DNA of 64,000 nucleotides from Octopus sinensis. Lineage: Eukaryota. Below the pieces are notes generated by a model. That model was not told the origin of the DNA. It saw only the letters and a list, made by a program, of their open reading frames with translations, and made no database searches. The translations under genes were made by a program, and so were the position numbers. Positions 17,801-55,838 of the stretch are shown here, one piece after another; the first letter of the stretch is position 1, and every line of letters begins with the position of its first letter. The DNA is taken from positions 93,434,001 through 93,498,000 of the forward strand of contig NC_043000.1 of the NCBI RefSeq assembly GCF_006345805.1, read 5' to 3'.

Positions 17801-17977
17801 TACAAATATATATATGTATGTCATAATAAAATAAATATAAGAGAGTGGTCACTATATGGCTCACTCTAGCACCAGTTAATCCAAAAGGTTTCAACCACAA
17901 AAATACATGTTTCCCATGAAAGTCAGTACGATTGTTAGCTCACACGGACAGGGCAAATAAAAAATAACAAAAATACA

Positions 17978-18069
17978 GATTATTTTGGGACAATTGTTTC
18001 GCTATTAATGAATTAAATGTAATTTTACTTACAAAAAAATCCACTTGTAGCTCGTCAGCCAAAACTATC
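17978..18069 (-). ncRNA. Type I hammerhead ribozyme
   Basis: GATAGTTTTGG-CTGACGA-GCTA...TAGC-GAAA-CAATTG-TC-CCAAAATAATC: stem I 10 of 11 paired, intact core, GUC site, palindromic stem III ACAATTGT. Confidence 0.85.
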
Positions 18070-18495
18070 TGGATGAAATCCACTCAATCACACGCCAGAT
18101 TTTACCATAACGATAAATACGCGTGTGGTTCAATTGATTACATCCGACGTTATAATTCAAATGCCCCAACTAACAGCGCGCCAAACTTTCACGGAAAACA
18201 AATACAGCATTTAGAAATAAATGCAGCATAATTATAATTAATTAATAAGGGTGAGAGAATTAGATACTAATTTAATAGTATATCTATTCAACACCAAGTG
18301 GCCTAGTGCTCCGAGAAACCTGGATTATTATAATATTTTATAATATATTACAATATTTTTACAAAATAAATATAAGAGAGTGGTCGCGCTGTTAGTTGGG
18401 GCATTTGAATTATAACGTCGGATGTAATCAATTGAACCACACGCGTATTTATCGTTATGGTAAAATCTGGCGTGTGATTGAGTGGATTTCATCCA

Positions 18496-18587
18496 GATAG
18501 TCTTGGCTGACGAGCTACAAGTGGATTTTTTTGTAAGTAAAATTACATTTAATTCATTAATAGCGAAACAATTGTCCCAAAATAATC
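18496..18587 (+). ncRNA. Type I hammerhead ribozyme
   Basis: CTGACGA 18507-18513; stem II GCTA/TAGC with a pairable internal extension; GAAA 18565-18568; predicted cleavage after C18576 (GUC); stem I TTGG/CCAA plus extension. Confidence 0.85.
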
Positions 18588-19170
18588 TGTATTTTTGTTA
18601 TTTTTTATTTGCCCTGTCCGTGTGAGCTAACAATCGTACTGACTTTCATGGGAAACATGTATTTTTGTGGTTGAAACCTTTTGGATTAACTGGTGCTAGA
18701 GTGAGCCATATAGTGACCACTCTCTTATATTTATTTTGTAAAAATATTGTAATATATTATAAAATATTATAATAATCCAGGTTTCTCGGAGCACTAGGCC
18801 ACTTGGTGTTGAATAGATATACTATTAAATTAGTATCTAATTCTCTCACCCTTATTAATTAATTATGTATGTCATATATATCTAATATAAATGTACACAC
18901 ATACACACACACACATATATATATTTATATCTGTATATACGTGCTTTTGTTTGTATACATATGCAAATATGTGTATATATAAATACATATACACACATGC
19001 TTACATATATATGTGTGTGTATGTATATATATATATATGTATGTATCCATACAAATAGATATATATATAATATACATATTTATTATATATATGTCTGTGT
19101 GTGTGTAATATAGATATATATATATGTATGCATGTATATATGTCTGTCTATTTCTCTGTGTGTCTATCTC

Positions 19171-36921: not shown

Positions 36922-39650
36922 TCATGCACACAGACACACATAAATGCATGCATACATACATATGCACATTTATACACCTACACATAATTTGTAATTGTCT
37001 CTGTTGGTTTGCAGTTTTATTTTTCACGAGTTTCTCAATTGTGGTTCACTTTACATTCTAAGGAAAATTATAAAAGTGGGCTTTCTTACCAAATTCAACA
37101 GGGAGATTTCTCTCTTCCATGTGTATACTCCAATGATTTCTATAGGTGACTGGATTCATTCATACACTGCTCTGTGTATCTGCAATTATTATTATTCCGA
37201 TGGCCATTTATCACTTTCACTCTGGTCCCCAAAGTAAATCCCTGCAATGCATCTTCAATGAATATGTTTTGCTTTAAGTCTGCTGCAGTTGTATTATATG
37301 CAATAGAAGGTATGCATGTGCATAACTATACACATGCATATACATGCACGTGCACGCATGAATATATACACTCACGCATATACATACACACATTTCCTCA
37401 CCTATATGTGCATGTGTGTATATACAAACTCGCATACATGTGTGTGTACGGAACTATATGCCTCTATGCTTGCTTATTCATGCATACATATATGCATATA
37501 TACATACATGCATACTAGCATATATACTTATATATACATGTACATATGCATGCATATTTTCTTATATATTTGTGTATATGTCTATAACTTTATTTGTAGA
37601 TGTATGTGTGCAAATTTATATATATGTGTGTGTGTGTGTGTATTTGTATACATGTACATACATATATAGAGAGAGGGACAGCATATAGAAATATATGAGC
37701 ATTTACATATATATACATATATATATATTATATATATATTATATATATAATATATATATATGAATCATATATATACATATATATGAGCATTTACATATAT
37801 ATATACATATATATATATATATAATATATATATGAATCCATATATACATATATATGTATATATACATATGTACATGCATCATACATACATGCATTCATAA
37901 ATGCATATATCATACGTACATGCATATATGTAATATATAATATATATATATATTATATATATATATATACACATACGTATGTATATATTTATACATACAT
38001 ACATACAATACATACATACATAATATATATATATATATTATACATTATAATATATTATATATATACTCTATGTATGTATATAGGTAGGTATCTATGCAAT
38101 GCATATATATATACACATATATGTGTGCATCTGTGTATAATTGTGCACATTTCAATTGCTGAATATACAGTGTTTGGCGTTGTATTCTGTCATAAATCTG
38201 TGCATCAGTGGAATTATTACACAACTATATAATTGACTAAAGATAAAAAAACTTGTCTAAGAAGCTTTTGATATGCTTCTGTTGATGAGGAAATCTTTCC
38301 TTTAACAGAAATACAGTTTGGAAAACAGAAAGCTTATCCCAGGAGATTGTGTTTTTCTGTGATAACAGCAACATTCTTATAACTGCTTCAAACATTTTCT
38401 AATACATAATTCAAAATGTGATTCATGATGATGACGATGACAATCCAGAAGAGGATAATGATGATGATTAGGATGGTGAAAATAATATTCCCAATAAAAA
38501 AGAAAACAGTATTGTAAATAATGTTAATGATAACTGTGGAGATTTTTCAGCTCTTGGAACAACATGGAATGAGAAATTTACTGGTGGAAAATGTTATCAT
38601 CGTAATTGCCATCAGCATTTATTTCCCCTGCATATCATTGCTCATCTGCAAGGCTCAGTATTTTGTGTACTACACTCATATTCATCCTTGGGTGGATTTT
38701 TTTTTTGTTTTGATAACAGAAAATTTCTTATATTTGTTTCAAATATTTTCTTCAGCATTCCTTTTCCAATTGGCAGCACAAATTGATATTCAAACATGAC
38801 ATTTTATTGTCTTGAGCTGTGGCACTCATTGAGCCAGTTACCTGGTTTCCATGACATTTAAATAACTGAGGCCACAACATACACCCTGAACATGGTGCCA
38901 GACCATCATAGGGTAACTCTTTTACAGCTGAATGGACTGAGTCAATGTAAAATTAAATGTTTCCTCAAGAACACAACACATCACCCAGTCTAGAAATTGA
39001 AACCATGGTCTTGTGATTATGAGTGCAACATCCTGTCCACAAGGGTATGCACTTTTACATTCACACAGAACATTTATCATCATTTCATGTCAAACAGTGA
39101 CACCAACACTGTTATCTCCCCTGTATATGTTTAGCCATGAAGGTACATGGCTCAATGGTTAGAACGTTGGGCTCACAAACATGAGGTAGTGAGTTTGATT
39201 CCCAGACTGGGCTGTGTGTTGTGTTCTTGAGAAAAACATTTCATTTCATGAGCATGATCGCTGCAAGCAGCTGACTGGCTTCCGTGCTGGTGGCACATAA
39301 AAAGCACTATTCAAATGTGATCGTTACCAGCGTCGCCTTACTGGCACTTGTGCCAGTAGCACATGAAAAACATTCGAGCGAGGTCGTTGCCAGTGCCACT
39401 GGACTGGCTCCTGTGTAGGTGGCACATAAAATCACCACTTGAGTGCGGCCGTTGCCAGTACCGCCTGACTGGCGCTCGTGCCGGCGGCACGTAAAAGCAC
39501 CCACTACACTCTCAGAGTGGTTGGTGTTAGGAAGGGCATCCAGCAGTAGAAACTCTGCCAGATCAGATTGGAGTCTGGTGCAGCCATCTGGTTCACCAGT
39601 CCTCAGTCAAATCGCCCAACCCATGCTAGCATGGAAAGCGGACGTTAAAC

Positions 39651-39696
<46 letters not shown>

Positions 39697-39959
39697 TTGC
39701 TCTACTTCACTCAGTTGTAGAAATGAGCTGCAATGTCACTGGTACCAACATCTGGTGGCATGGAGAGGGGAGGCTGGTATACTTAGGGTGACTGCTGATC
39801 TTCCATAAATGGACTTGTACGATGGAGGAAAATTTCTAGGTGTAATCCCATGAGCATTCATGACCAAATGGGATCTTTACTCTTGCATATGGTTAGGTAA
39901 TGTCATCAGTTGTATGAATTCTTATAGCATTGAATAGAATTTTGTAGGTACTAGACATC

Positions 39960-40650
39960 TGTCAGTCTTGGGAGGCCATGGATCTGTGCCCAAAGAAATG
40001 GTATCAGCTGCTGATGGTGATGCAGTGTCTGTTGTGGCTGTACTGCCCCACATGGGAGTGGCAGTGATGCACACAGCAACTGCATTTGAAGGAGCTCTCT
40101 GCCAGTGCTGATGATTTTTTTCCCTTCCGTTGAATGCGATTTCCATTGATGGCAAGCACCGGTTTGTCTTCCACAGTATTTTATTTCTTTATTGCTCACA
40201 AGGGGCTAAACATAGAGGGGACAAACAAGAACAGACAAAGGGATTAAGTCGATTACATCGCCACCGTACGTAACTGGTACTTAATTTATCGACTCCGAAA
40301 GAATGAAAGGCAAAGTCGACCTCGGCGGAATTTGAACTCAGAACGTAAAGACAGGCGAAATACCGCTAAGCATTTTGCCCGGCATGTTAACGTTTGTGCC
40401 AGCTTGCCACCTTTCACAGTATTTGCCTCCAGTGTGGGCAATTATTTGCAGCCTCCCCCAATCTCAGGACGTCCAGATCAAGTGATTTCATATCTGTCTT
40501 GCACTTACAGACATTTTTGAAATGAAAATGTGGTAGTCTTCATGCTCTCGTACTGGTAGCCAATTCCTCATGCATGAGGCCTTTTGAGATACTTTCGTCT
40601 GACATGTAATGAACACGACTGAGCCGGCTCAAACAATGCTGCTGCAGAAA
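39960..40650 (-). mobile_element. Decayed RTE (BovB-like) LINE 3' region interrupted by a SINE
   Basis: EELATSTRA*RLPHFHFKNVCK..DMKSLDLDV resembles the GELxxGxRxxGRPxLRFKDxxKxD motif. Confidence 0.65.
40182..40414 (-). mobile_element. Family B SINE with TSD
   Basis: TSD CACAGTATTT at 40172-40181 and 40415-40424. Confidence 0.9.
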
Positions 40651-40933
40651 GATGTGTATGACAAGAATGACTTACAAGGAATTAAGTAAACTCATTAGTA
40701 CTGATGCTATGATGAAATACACTCAATACACTATGAAATGGTTGACAAACAAATATTGGCAATGTAGTTGTAGGAATCTCAAACCTTCCAAATTTTCCTG
40801 ACATTTTTTTTTTAAAGGCTAATGAAGTATAAAGTATAAGATGTATACAAAACAGTCCCACTGCAACAGAGTAATATTAGATAATACTGAAAAGATGTAA
40901 GACTAATCGTATACAGAAAAAACTGAGTAGAAT

Positions 40934-41105
40934 AGGCGTAGGAGTGGCTGTGTGGTAAGTAGCTTGCTTACGAAGCACATGGTTCCAGGTTCAGTCCCAC
41001 TGCGTGGCACCTTGGGCAAGTGTCTTCTACTATAGCCTCGCGCCAACCAAAGCCTTGTGAGAGGATTTGGTAGATGGAAACTGAAAGAAGCCCAGCGTAT
41101 ATATG

Positions 41106-41154
<49 letters not shown>

Positions 41155-41402
41155 ATGTTTGCGTGTGTGTCTGTGTGTGTGTATGTTTGTGTGTCTGTGT
41201 TTGTCCTCCTAACATCGCTTGACAACTGATGCTGGTGTGTTTATGTCCCTGTAACTTAGCAGTTTGGCAAAAGAGACTGATAGAATAACTACTAGGCTTA
41301 CAAAGAATAAGTCCTGGGGTCAATTTGCTCAACTAAAGCCAGTGCTCCAGCATGGCCACAGTCAAATGACTGAAACAAGTAAAAGAGTAAAAGAGTAAAA
41401 AG
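40934..41402 (+). mobile_element. Full-length family A SINE
   Basis: Complete head, internal (TG)n, body and tail. Confidence 0.9.
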
Positions 41403-41564
41403 AGAATGCTTTAGCTGCATAAATCATTTGTGTCTTTGGAGAATCACAAGGTCAACTTCACCCAGAACATTTGTTGCAGGTTAAACAACTAATGTGGTAA
41501 ATAGATATCAGAAGAAAATGCTACATCAGCTCATTTTACAAATTAGAGCAGCTTTGAAACTTAA

Positions 41565-41784
41565 GCCTTTAACATTCAGATTGCTCTGTGAAATGTAATG
41601 CTTATTCATTCACATTGTTTTGAGTTTGTCATACATTATCTTGTAGCTTTGGGATTTTGATGACGTGATTGTTTATTTTTAGAATGACATTGTAGGGTAG
41701 ATGTGAAAGGTTTGATCTGTCTACTTTGAACATAAAATAGAAAGAATATTTGGGCCTGATGTTGATGGCTTAAATACCAAAGGG
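41565..41784. mobile_element. TTAA-flanked piggyBac-type MITE
   Basis: TTAA|GCCTTTAACATTC...AATACCAAAGGG|TTAA; partial copies at ~55905-56000 and 63951-64000. Confidence 0.7.
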
Positions 41785-42847
41785 TTAAGGATGAATATGG
41801 TGCAGTATCATGATTGAATGGGTTAAATATCATCATCATCATCATCGTTTAACGTCCGCTTTCCATGCTGGTATGGGTTGGACGATTTGACTGAGGACTG
41901 GCGAACCAGATGGCTGCACCAGGCTCCAATCTGATCTGGTAGAGTTTCTACAGCTGGATGCCCTTTCTAACGCCAACCACTCCGAGAGTGTAATGGGTGC
42001 TTTTACGTGCCACTGGCATGAGGACCAGTCAGGTAGTATTGGCAACGGTCACGCCCAAATGGTGTTTTTATGTGCCACCTGCACAGGAGTCAGTCCAGCA
42101 GCACTGGCAATGACTTCACTCGAATGTTTTTTCACGTGTCACTGGCACAAGTGCCAGTAAGGCGACACTGATAATGATCACACTCAAATGGTGTTTTGTA
42201 CGTGCCACCAGCATGGAAGCCAGTTAGCTGCTCTGGCAACGATCATGCTCAGATGGTGCTTTTAGTACTCCACTAACACAGATGCCAGTCACCGAATTTG
42301 ATTTCGATTATGAAATAGCATACCCAGCTGCAAATATATATAATTGAGTATTATAGGGTTTTACCCTGTCAATATCAAAGACCCTTCTTCTCTAAGCCTT
42401 AGAATTCGTTTAAGGCGGCGAGCTAGCAGAAGTGTTAGCATGCCCAGTGAAATGCTTAGCAGTATTTCGTCTGTCTTTACGTTGAGTTCAAATTCCACCG
42501 AGCTTGACTTTGCCTTTCATCCTTTTGGGGTCGATAAATTAAGTACCAGTTACATACTGGGGTCGATCTAATTGACTGGCCCTATCCCACAAAATTTCGG
42601 GCCTTGTGCCTAGAGTAGAAAAGAATCACTGACTCCAGCATTAGTATGATTTTGAATCCTAGAAAATAGTTATTATTTCACAATAACTGTTGTCAGGTGA
42701 AGAAACTGGCAAGAAACCCTTCAGCATTGCATTAAGGTATTTTGAATGGGAGGAACTCATAGGCTTTGTAGGCCTAGACATTCTTGATATCCTGAATAAT
42801 GAAGTAAAGAAGGTTAAAGAATACCTAGAATAATGAAGTAAAGAAAG

Positions 42848-53371: not shown

Positions 53372-55140
53372 TAGTTATACATCCTTTACTAGTCATTTTT
53401 CTATACCTAGTGTATAGCTTGTACTGCCTTCATAAGCCATTCATATACACCTAGTACATAGCTTGCATGTTAAATCATTTATGTTACATGTTATATCACA
53501 TAATTTTCTGAAATAATTTATTTTAAAATTTCATTACCAGATTATACATTCTCATTGTCAACTGTACAAGGACTCATTGAATGTTTTGTTTCTTAGTGCA
53601 CTATGTTCTGAGCCTGGAGTAATCATAGCTGGAACCTCTTTGATCATAGCTCTGCAGGTTCAGAGTTGACCTAGGGCTAAACAGTAATAACAGTAGTAGA
53701 AACTAAATAGCTAAGAAGATGAGCCAAAAATTGAACCTCTACGTAGTTTCTTAGCCTTTCAAAAACAACAGCCAAATTCCTCTCAAAAATCTTAACCCAC
53801 TGTTTTAGGAAAAAAAATACATATGATGGTAATGTGGTCCTCAGTATTCATGTGAAAAAAACAAAAAAGTCATGGTTGGAATGTCTACAGTTACAGGTTT
53901 TCTAATGTGAGACAATGCACCAAAACCAAAAACAACATTAACAACAACAACAACAGTGGCAGGCAGGTTATTTCACTTGCTGTCACTTCTTATTCACTAT
54001 TGTTCCATATATTTTGGACTAATTATCTTATGAAAGCTAATTAAATTTAAACAGTAATTAAGTTAAAGTTAACGTGTTTTATGTAAAGAATGCCAACAAT
54101 ATTTTATATAAAGTTATGTGATGTGAAAGATAGTATTTGATTAATTAATTAACATTATTTTAATAATTTCAGCAAGTATGGTAGACAAATTGAGACATGT
54201 TTTAGTCTTATTGAACCTTCTTAGCTAAGCATAGGCTCCACTGTACATGTCATAGGATTGATAAAAAAAAATCACTAAATAGGTATGAAAATATTTTCAT
54301 TAGTAGATATGAAATGAAAAATTAATATATATATCTAACAGGTGTCATTATCATCGTCGTTGTCATCATCATCATCAACATAGCATCTACTTTTCCATGC
54401 AGAACATTTGAAGCAGACTTTCTGTGGCTAGATGCCATTCCAGTTACCAACCTTAATGTATTTCCATGCAAGGTAATATACTTACATGGCTGGACATGTT
54501 TTCATGAAAGATTGAAAATAAAGGACACACACACACACACACACATGTGCATGTCTGCACACACATGCATATACATATTTATTCATGTATAAACATGTGC
54601 TTCATTGATCATTATTATCATTTAATGCCTGTTTTTCCATGCTGGCATGAGTTGGATGGTCTGACCAGAGCTGGCAAGCTGGAGAACTTCACCAGGCTCT
54701 AGTCCAATTTGTCTTTGGCTTTGGCTTCTATGGCTGGGTGCCCTTTCTAACCCTATCCACTTGACAAAAGGTGCTGAGTGCTTTTTGCATGATACTGGCT
54801 TGGATATATACTTTACATATATACTTTATTATTAAAGCTGTAAAAACATCACAAAAAACTGTTACTCAGAGTTTCACATTCCCATCTGTTGGATAGCTTT
54901 GGTTGAGAATGAAACAAAAAGTTATATATATATATATAATAAATATTAGGGAATAAATCCAAACTTACAGGGAAAAATCAGATTTAGGATTGAATCCAAT
55001 TTTATAGTAAAATATTATATTATATTAAATTAGAGACAAAAACCACTATCAGGCAAATCAAACAATGAAAGACTTAAGCCAATACATATGATTAATTTAT
55101 ATTATTTAAAAATGTAACAAAATTATCAAAAAATATAATT

Positions 55141-55219
55141 AATATCCCACTACGATCGTTTCCTGCCTGCAGTCTTCAAATTTTTGAGTCGCAGTCATTC
55201 ATCAGATGGTTTAAATATT
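55141..55219 (-). ncRNA. Type I hammerhead ribozyme-like motif
   Basis: CCAT-CTGATGA-(36-nt stem II)-GAAA-CGATCG-TA-GTGG; perfect palindrome ACGATCGT; GUA site; A.G mismatch at the base of stem II. Confidence 0.7.
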
Positions 55220-55288
55220 TTTCTTGGTGAGGTTTAAACAATGAACTAGAATTTTTAATCAAAAAACGTCTTATACCTCGCCAAGAAA

Positions 55289-55367
55289 AATATCTAAACC
55301 ACCTGATGAATGACTGCGACTCAAAAATTTGAAGACTGCAGGCAGGAAACGATTGTAGTGGGATATT
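55289..55367 (+). ncRNA. Type I hammerhead ribozyme-like motif
   Basis: CCAC-CTGATGA(55303-55309)-ATGACTGC...GCAGGCAG-GAAA(55346-55349)-CGATTG-TA-GTGG; distal stem I AATATC/GATATT. Confidence 0.7.
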
Positions 55368-55533
55368 AATTATATTTTTTGATAATTTTGTTACATTTTT
55401 AAATAATATAAATTAATCATATGTATTGGCTTAAGTCTTTCATTGTTTGATTTGCCTAATAGCGGTTTTGTCTCTAATTTAATATAATATTATATATATA
55501 TATATAGATATATATATATAATATGTATATATG

Positions 55534-55838
55534 TGGAGGCGCAATGGCCTAGTGGTTAGGGCAGCGGACTCGCGGTCGCAGGATCGCAGTTTTGATTCCC
55601 AGACCGGACGTTGTGAGTGTTTATTGAGCGAAAACACCTAAAAGCTCCACGAGGCTCCGGCAGGGGGTGGTGATCCCTGCTGTACTCTTTCACCACTCTT
55701 TCTCCCACTCTTTCTTCTGTTGGCCTGCTCACTTAGCCAGCGGGGTGGCGTCATTCGAAGGCTAAAACAATGCGAACGCATTGTGACCAGCGATGTGTAA
55801 CAACATCTGATGGTCTGGTCGGTCATGTGATCACGTGA
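55534..55838 (+). mobile_element. Family C SINE with alternative 3' body
   Basis: Head GGAGGCGCAATGGCCTAGTGGTTAGGGC; tail shared with 9078-9180. Confidence 0.85.

What the first reader, a model, noticed from the sequence alone, without database searches (positions are those of the whole stretch)
54939..55490. Second, dissimilar fold-back family with the same hammerhead design
Seen: ~225-bp arms, each with CUGAUGA, a 36-nt extended stem II, GAAA, palindromic ACGAUCGU (ACGAUUGU in the plus arm), a GUA site and stem I CCAC/GUGG with distal AAUAUC/GAUAUU. There is no visible primary similarity to the 18-kb element, but the architecture and TA flanks match. The A.G mismatch at the base of stem II is in both arms, so it either predates the inversion or is a family variant. 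Inference: an independent family of the same system.
Basis: partly seen in the sequence, partly recalled or inferred. Interest (0 to 1): 0.75.

Follow-up and report, generated by a model that had tools for sequence, protein, structure and literature searches.

The report
Folded-back spliced Penelope retroelement leader
This mirror-image sequence is two intron-less copies of the front end of a protein-coding Penelope-type jumping gene (Hydra clade), each with a decaying hammerhead ribozyme motif, likely made by copying a spliced messenger RNA twice from the two ends of a DNA cut; the layout is known, but the family's copies bear on how these elements copy themselves.

Summary
The fold-back and both hammerhead motifs are real. 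It is not a stand-alone ribozyme family. It is the pseudo-LTR of a Hydra-clade Penelope-like retrotransposon, whose ORF-bearing parent (RT with YRDD, CxCx5C linker, GIY-YIG-type end) lies elsewhere in this genome. The layout is the published one: one arm with an ~80-bp tail, an inverted tail-less partner, and a (TA)n target. Both arms lack a 692-nt GT-AG intron that other copies keep (56 versus 52 exact junction matches). Of the 56 spliced copies, 52 start within 30 nt of the junction. All 9 that start at -29, an initiator-like site, carry an extra G, likely copied from the cap. In 48 of 49 fold-backs exactly one arm has the tail, and 11 of 11 scorable pairs agree in splice state. This fits two cDNAs primed on sense RNA from one source. 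The A.G pair at the base of stem II is a subfamily defect: it is A-U in 57 of 79 copies and in most older lineages. The 18-kb element is a non-coding tandem unit, so 'same system' holds only for the insertion machinery. This scan already noted the spliced-leader pattern on other families of this genome.

The parts
54937..55275 (-). Long arm: spliced pLTR copy from about -58 (relative to the splice junction) through exon 2 to the distal 3' end, with tail
   Evidence: L001 row: spliced, -58 to +281, tail
54937..55015 (-). PLE tail, about 79 nt: the first stretch of the element body that follows the upstream pLTR, about 60 bp before the ORF start
   Evidence: it lies between the pLTR end and the ORF in 12 of 20 RT-bearing loci; 3' ends pile up at +202 and +281
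55147..55209 (-). Minimal type I hammerhead motif, minus arm (stem I CCAU/GUGG, A.G at base of stem II, palindrome ACGAUCGU, predicted site after 55151)
   Evidence: cleavage untested
55218..55219 (-). Exon-exon junction; a 692-nt GT..AG intron is missing here
   Evidence: intron-bearing copies at C3:126.42 Mb and C22:29.08 Mb; junction counts
55243..55275 (-). Likely core promoter remnant: initiator-like CTAGTTC (A at 55247 = -29, inferred start site) and TATAAG 28 nt upstream
   Evidence: positions; 5'-end pile-up and extra G; promoter activity inferred
55274..55276 (.). Head-to-head junction of the two arms with about 2 nt of microhomology
   Evidence: read against the upstream sequence; gap -1
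55275..55490 (+). Short arm: spliced pLTR copy from -15 to the proximal 3' end, without tail
55289..55290 (+). Exon-exon junction in the short arm
55299..55361 (+). Minimal type I hammerhead motif, plus arm (CCAC/GUGG, A10.1.G11.1, ACGAUUGU, predicted site after 55357)
   Evidence: cleavage untested
54924..54938 (.). (TA)n target, left part
55491..55522 (.). (TA)n target, right part; no target-site duplication can be told
   Evidence: 152 of 163 family arms end in (TA)4+

Best explanation
This is a 5'-truncated, folded-back insertion of a Hydra-clade Penelope-like retrotransposon, made of two intron-less copies of its pseudo-LTR, likely produced when the element's enzyme cut a (TA)n site and copied uncleaved, spliced sense RNA from one source twice, once from each cut strand. 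Shown: the parent ORF, the intron, the one-sided tail, two sharp 3' ends and the (TA)n target. Inferred steps: (1) a Pol II promoter in the upstream pLTR starts a capped RNA at -29, and the cap-proximal intron is spliced. (2) The RT starts internally at two sites near the 5' end of the RNA (+202 and +281), one per target strand, as shown in vitro for an anole PLE. (3) The two cDNA 3' ends join by microhomology, head to head. (4) The downstream pLTR intron of long transcripts is mostly left unspliced, which gives the intron-bearing long copies. This copy's long arm reaches 29 nt beyond the main start site, so its RNA began further upstream. The hammerhead is a dimer-type motif inherited from the parent. 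It is probably weak in this subfamily and masked in any fold-back RNA.
For: Parent: (pLTR end + tail + ORF in 12 of 20 RT loci; a 761-aa open stretch in L158). Hydra motifs. Junction counts: 56 spliced, 52 intron-retaining. 5' ends: 52 of 56 spliced copies lie within 30 nt of the junction and none beyond -42, against 24 to >=1500 nt for the 30 intron-retaining rows held (one L085 row is repeated). Extra G: 9 of 9 ends at -29 versus 4 of 47 other ends (p=9e-8). Of 28 matches with upstream AAATT, 26 have T at -30 and 2 read AAATTAG, which is the inverted partner's end. All 23 G-start copies are spliced (22 scored, 1 read by eye). Coupling: the tail is on exactly one arm in 48 of 49 pairs (two rows are repeats). 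Splice state agrees in 11 of 11 scorable pairs (7 spliced, 4 unspliced). The window arms share 7 non-majority bases, one of them found in 0 of 132 other arms. In 26 of the 48 tailed pairs (hand count) neither arm contains the other, so one cannot be a copy of the other. In vitro precedent: Frangieh 2024, PMC11167929.
Against: No RNA 5' ends or raw reads were available. Contigs that skip the intron (3 of 4 runs) prove nothing, because spliced copies exist as DNA. The extra G could come from the inverted partner in 7 of 23 copies by script (about 9 by eye); in only 3 does the adjoining partner clearly stop before it. A second pile-up at -24 (10 of 56) has no G. The window copy is itself nested (its tailed arm is also the 5'-longer one), so snap-back is not excluded for this copy. 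One long ORF-linked copy is spliced (L135). Pfam gives no passing match for the ORF pieces, so domain labels rest on motifs and on homologues. No ORF-bearing copy with G11.1 was seen among the long copies read, so this subfamily's direct source may be non-coding.
Confidence: 0.72

Rival explanations
1. The parent is the same PLE, but the fold-back forms by snap-back: one cDNA folds at its 3' end and copies itself (or an antisense template self-primes, as proposed by Arkhipova 2013).
For: It also predicts identical arms with the same splice state. The window copy is nested, and short palindromic junctions such as ACAATGAGTTCATTGT occur.
Against: 26 of 48 tailed pairs are non-nested, and in 7 the tailed arm starts at +201 or later, so it shares almost nothing with its partner (hand count). 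Exact GT-AG removal on the sense strand rules out an antisense template for the spliced class.
Confidence: 0.15
2. The window's subfamily is a non-autonomous mini-element (SINE-like or retrozyme-like) that now spreads from an ORF-less source, using the Hydra enzyme in trans.
For: G11.1 is in 10 of 56 spliced but only 1 of 30 unspliced exact copies. No long ORF-linked G11.1 copy was seen. The window's long arm starts upstream of the main start site.
Against: There is no fixed unit length and no tandem arrays of the unit among the loci held. The tail is body sequence. An intron-bearing G11.1 copy exists (L030). This rival changes the source, not the copying mechanism.
Confidence: 0.25
3. It is a selected two-ribozyme device in which each strand makes an active hammerhead or the pair forms the dimer.
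For: The core nucleotides are intact in both arms. Across 7 lineages every core position except N7 and 11.1 is invariant, and the stem III palindrome switches GAUC to AAUU.
Against: That conservation belongs to the parent lineages. One strand carries only one sense motif, and the whole RNA folds as a duplex (450-480 of 552 nt paired, -332 and -346 kcal/mol). The arms have each decayed (8 of 225 differences, including stem I and the palindrome), and stem II has two A.G mismatches. Most family fold-backs have a partner too short to hold the motif.
Confidence: 0.04
4. It is a DNA foldback or MITE-type transposon with long terminal inverted repeats.
For: Long inverted arms and TA flanks.
Against: The ends are asymmetric (tail), an intron is precisely lost, 5' truncation varies, 65 solo arms were found beside 49 pairs, and the sequence is linked to an RT ORF.
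Confidence: 0.01

Closest known systems
Hydra clade of C-terminal-EN Penelope-like elements (Craig et al. 2021, PMC8557442; includes Hydra-1_Obim)
   Same: R..WK, DKT, CxCx5C linker, CxxC and CxH around E and N, no CCHH, (TA)n targets, hammerhead near the 3' end. Hydra-1_Obim's hammerhead also has A-U at the base of stem II (supplement).
   Different: About 5.5 kb rather than <3 kb, with a ~2-kb microsatellite-rich 3' region, a 692-nt pLTR intron and an Asn-rich insert of about 100 aa after the thumb. It is a different family from Hydra-1_Obim (N-terminus compared by eye), which was listed with 'no pLTR'.
PLE insertion anatomy: pLTR, inverted 5'-truncated partner, one-sided tail (Craig 2021 Fig. 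2; Arkhipova 2013, PMC3846280)
   Same: Identical layout, including head-to-head palindromes.
   Different: The tail is 79 nt rather than 30-40 nt. About half of the junction-spanning copies are spliced, whereas these papers stress intron retention.
PAc, Poseidon of Anolis (Frangieh et al. 2024, PMC11167929)
   Same: Two internal RT start sites bounding the tail, both target strands extended, AT-rich targets, and uncleaved RNA as template.
   Different: A different clade. There the start sites lie inside the ORF, 111-118 nt in; here both 3' ends lie upstream of the first ATG of the long frame. The parts read (3 of 4) do not discuss spliced genomic copies.
Minimal type I hammerheads of metazoan PLEs (Cervera and de la Pena 2014, PMC4209133); D. 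virilis Penelope
   Same: Short palindromic helix III (dimer type), long helix II, opposite-strand pairs 100-700 bp apart, and an intron ending just 5' of helix I.
   Different: A10.1-U11.1 (A.G in this subfamily) instead of the conserved G10.1-C11.1, and no unpaired base after A9.
Animal non-LTR retrozymes (bioRxiv 10.64898/2026.07.22.740005)
   Same: Type I hammerhead and PLE dependence; fits the 18-kb element of this window.
   Different: This element is not a tandem non-coding unit but the end of a coding PLE.

Membership tests
EN+ Penelope-like element | Single ORF with RT followed by a GIY-YIG-type endonuclease, linked to this terminus | tested here: met
   (YRDD, VVY..YIG); 47 homologues, many with PF26215. 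Pfam itself gave no passing match.
EN+ Penelope-like element | pLTR at both ends (partial tandem) | tested here: met
   An upstream pLTR end plus tail in 12 of 20 RT loci, and a downstream pLTR in L137
EN+ Penelope-like element | Inverted 5'-truncated partner and a tail on one end only | tested here: met
   48 of 49 pairs; the window copy itself
EN+ Penelope-like element | Hammerhead motif in the pLTR | tested here: met
   no motif found upstream of the ORF in L140, L145 (truncated pLTRs) or L150, L151, L156, L157
Hydra clade | RWK and DKT motifs; GxKF/Y not conserved | tested here: met
   SRIKWK and SDKT align with RMRWK and DKT of homologues
Hydra clade | CxCX5C linker; CxxC and CxH flanking E and N; no CCHH | tested here: met
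   CTCRDKSKC; CYLC..E..N..KCRH
Hydra clade | (TA)n insertion preference | tested here: met
   152 of 163 arms
Hydra clade | Generally short (<3 kb) | tested here: not met
   About 5.5 kb from ORF start to 3' end in L137; the paper gives this as a tendency, not a defining trait
Hydra clade | Groups with Hydra references in an RT tree | not tested
   Reference sequences were only seen in the supplement text and compared by eye
Neptune clade | CX2-5CxxC linker and CCHH motif | tested here: not met
   my first reading was Neptune and was dropped
Type I hammerhead ribozyme | Core CUGANGA / GAAA / UH with helix I closing the ends | tested here: met
Type I hammerhead ribozyme | Paired 10.1-11.1 at the base of helix II | tested here: not met
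   A.G in both arms; A-U in 57 of 79 family copies
Type I hammerhead ribozyme | Self-cleavage | not testable with these tools
   Needs a cleavage assay
Non-LTR retrozyme | Non-coding unit in head-to-tail tandem arrays | tested here: not met
   Linked to an ORF; solos and fold-backs only. The 18-kb element does meet it.

The most novel reading that the evidence does not exclude
Penelope-like elements copy one capped mRNA molecule twice in a single event, from two fixed internal start sites, one on each strand of the cut. Their famous intron retention is then only position-dependent splicing: the cap-proximal pLTR intron is removed (giving a large class of spliced, cap-ended leader stumps), while the same intron several kb downstream is skipped by the spliceosome. 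No antisense or circular template would be needed, and the hammerhead can decay without stopping spread.
Probability: 0.45. Interest if true: 0.65.

Novelty: new member of a known kind. Interest (0 to 1): 0.4.

Why it matters
As a locus it is an ordinary dead retroelement stump. As a family it gives genomic counts on questions that the PLE papers leave open: template polarity and the cause of head-to-head palindromes (Arkhipova 2013), the meaning of intron retention (Craig 2021), and whether the two-site, two-strand priming seen in vitro (Frangieh 2024) happens in vivo. It supplies exact coordinates to test: start site -29, a 692-nt intron, and RT start sites +202 and +281. It also supplies a natural series of intact and damaged hammerheads.

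Tried and rejected
Rfam scans of the window and of the element gave no hammerhead match, only microsatellite or hairpin noise. Pfam and PDB sequence searches of the ORF gave nothing that passed. The Neptune assignment was rejected on motifs. One search was mis-addressed (it hit an unrelated LINE-like repeat) and is not used. Within-family conservation of core versus flank (0.73% versus 1.66%) is not used as support, because the search patterns fixed 6 of the 11 core positions; that 0 of 18 polymorphic columns fall in the core is also not significant alone. Sequencing runs: no RNA holder listed; contigs skipping the intron cannot be told from genomic spliced copies. The de-duplication failed (no coordinates), so counts come; repeated rows are noted where seen. 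The 1416 is first-look candidates, not a copy number. A search of scan notes by sequence found nothing. The literature search for 10.1-11.1 mismatches listed nothing relevant and the one for cap-derived G returned no paper, so both readings rest on recalled knowledge. The 39366-42131 inverted repeat is unrelated.

Full report
Observation. The element at 54937-55490 is a real fold-back. Its arms match at 217 of 225 aligned positions, and each carries CUGAUGA, a 36-nt stem II region, GAAA, a short palindromic stem III and a GUA site. A hammerhead descriptor hits the window 4 times against 0.03 in shuffles. Rfam does not recognise the motif, and the monomers fold no better than shuffles. The minus arm reads CCAU and AAUAUU, not CCAC and AAUAUC. 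The leftmost ~79 bp has no mirror copy. The host genome is 2.7 Gb and microsatellite-rich; homologue labels suggest an octopod.

A dispersed family with PLE anatomy. A search of the own genome gave 1416 first-look candidates; 40 were scored, with the best copies 93-98% identical. Copies end sharply at two places, +202 (64 arms) and +281 (58 arms) from the splice acceptor, and 152 of 163 arms run into (TA)n. There were 49 head-to-head pairs and 65 solo arms among the loci examined. In 48 of 49 pairs exactly one arm has the 79-nt extension (two rows are repeats; p about 7e-13 after removing them). This is the layout in Fig. 2 of Craig 2021 (passages read): pLTR, inverted 5'-truncated partner, one-sided tail.

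The parent. Walking upstream led to copies in which the terminus follows a decayed ORF, a ~2-kb 3' region and an intron. In 12 of 20 RT-bearing loci the pLTR end plus tail also lies just upstream of the ORF, so the tail is the start of the element body. L158 holds an open stretch of 761 aa to the edge of the locus; it has 47 homologues, many marked PF26215, although Pfam scans gave no passing match. Its motifs match the Hydra clade as defined in section 11 of Craig 2021: R..WK, DKT, CxCx5C, CxxC and CxH, no CCHH. It is longer than typical Hydra (about 5.5 kb) and has an Asn-rich insert, a feature also described for rotifer Penelopes. I first read it as Neptune; scan notes naming Hydra led me to check.

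Both arms are spliced. Long copies contain a 692-nt intron, GTATGT to TTTTAG, exactly at the point where the window arms read through. It ends 9 nt before helix I, much as in D. virilis Penelope (Cervera 2014, Results). Exact patterns found 56 spliced and 52 intron-retaining junctions. All 56 spliced copies were fetched: 52 begin within 30 nt of the junction and none beyond -42. The 30 intron-retaining rows held (of 52; one row repeated) begin anywhere from 24 to at least 1500 nt upstream. Nine spliced copies begin at -29, the A of an initiator-like CTAGTTC with TATAAG 28 nt upstream. All nine have a G where the element has T, against 4 of 47 other ends. No copy with genuine upstream sequence has that G, and all 23 G-start copies are spliced. 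The caveats are that the partner arm could supply the G in 7-9 of 23 copies, that only 3 exclude this, and that a pile-up at -24 (10 of 56) has no G. A few spliced copies reach further: this one (-58) and L135, which reaches the ORF.

How the fold-back forms. The two arms come from one source. Splice state agrees in 11 of 11 scorable pairs, and the window arms share 7 non-majority bases, one private (0 of 132 others). Yet in 26 of 48 tailed pairs neither arm contains the other, and in 7 the tailed arm starts at +201 or later (hand count). So in those pairs one arm cannot be a copy of the other. The simplest reading is two cDNAs primed on the two target strands from two internal start sites and joined by microhomology. 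Frangieh 2024 (parts 1-3 of 4 read) showed both-strand extension, two start sites bounding the tail, and uncleaved RNA as template in vitro. Arkhipova 2013 (Discussion read) instead proposed an antisense template and left it open; exact sense-strand splicing argues against that for the spliced class. Whether one RNA molecule or two from the same locus is used is not resolved. The window copy is nested, so snap-back cannot be excluded for it alone.

The hammerhead. Across seven lineages all core positions except N7 and 11.1 are invariant, while stem II runs from 17 to 39 nt and the stem III palindrome switches GAUC to AAUU. That fits selection for a dimer-type ribozyme in past source copies. 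Old lineages have AUGUC/GACAU with a 4-bp stem I. Young ones carry defects: an A.G at 10.4, plus either G11.1 (20 of 79) or a 3-bp stem I (52 of 79 have GUGU). Hydra-1_Obim also has A-U there (supplement). In four ORF-linked copies no motif was found upstream. An RNA through the whole fold-back would be almost fully duplexed. Activity is untested.

The 18-kb element. It shares the insertion anatomy but no sequence. It occurs as ~534-bp tandem units, 96-100% identical, with no tblastn match to this ORF in 25 loci of about 3 kb. It looks like a retrozyme (Li 2026, part 1 of 5 read). 'Same system' therefore holds for the machinery only.

Novelty. The element is a new member of a known clade with known anatomy. 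In the listings and in the parts of papers read, I found no report of a large spliced, cap-ended class of genomic PLE copies. Schostak 2008 (passages) reports spliced transcripts and explains retention by selection. Subscription papers (e.g. Arkhipova 2003, 2006) and most supplements were not seen. This scan's notes already describe the spliced-leader, two-arm pattern on other families of this genome; I tested it here on this family. Interest 0.4.

Noticed in passing
window 17808-18866: Young (96-100% identical) non-coding ~534-bp unit with a hammerhead (C-AAUU-GUC), in tandem arrays and fold-backs genome-wide; retrozyme-like; no match to this Hydra ORF in 25 loci.
   Followed up: partly
window 55530-55830: Repeat with a tRNA-like head (A-box and B-box-like motifs read by eye) inserted in the same TA tract just right of the element; ARAGORN calls no tRNA.
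   Followed up: no
window 39366-39668 and 41829-42131: 303-nt inverted repeat (89%) that looks like two copies of a (GAT)n-ended dispersed repeat in opposite orientation; appears ordinary.
   Followed up: partly
L038:2502+, L045:914+, L053:2122-2305, L089:674-, L029:3195-: Further unrelated hammerhead families with long stem II and short palindromic or near-palindromic stem III turn up by chance in 3-kb flanks; the L053 one is a fold-back.
   Followed up: no
L150, L151, L156, L157 (upstream pLTRs): ORF-linked copies in which AT-rich sequence stands where the hammerhead is expected; possibly a lineage that lost the motif.
   Followed up: partly
L158:271-2553 (-), residues about 490-590: Asn-rich insert of about 100 aa between the RT thumb and the linker, absent from most homologues, kept in frame.
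   Followed up: no
G000 C3:39656986/39662544 and C4:78079224/78084655: Pairs of RT matches 5.4-5.6 kb apart on one strand, likely full tandem copies; not fetched.
   Followed up: no
window 54963-54970 (-), in the tail: A GTAAGT donor-like motif inside the tail, and a TTTACAG-GTAAGA motif at the ORF start; a second intron is possible but untested.
   Followed up: no
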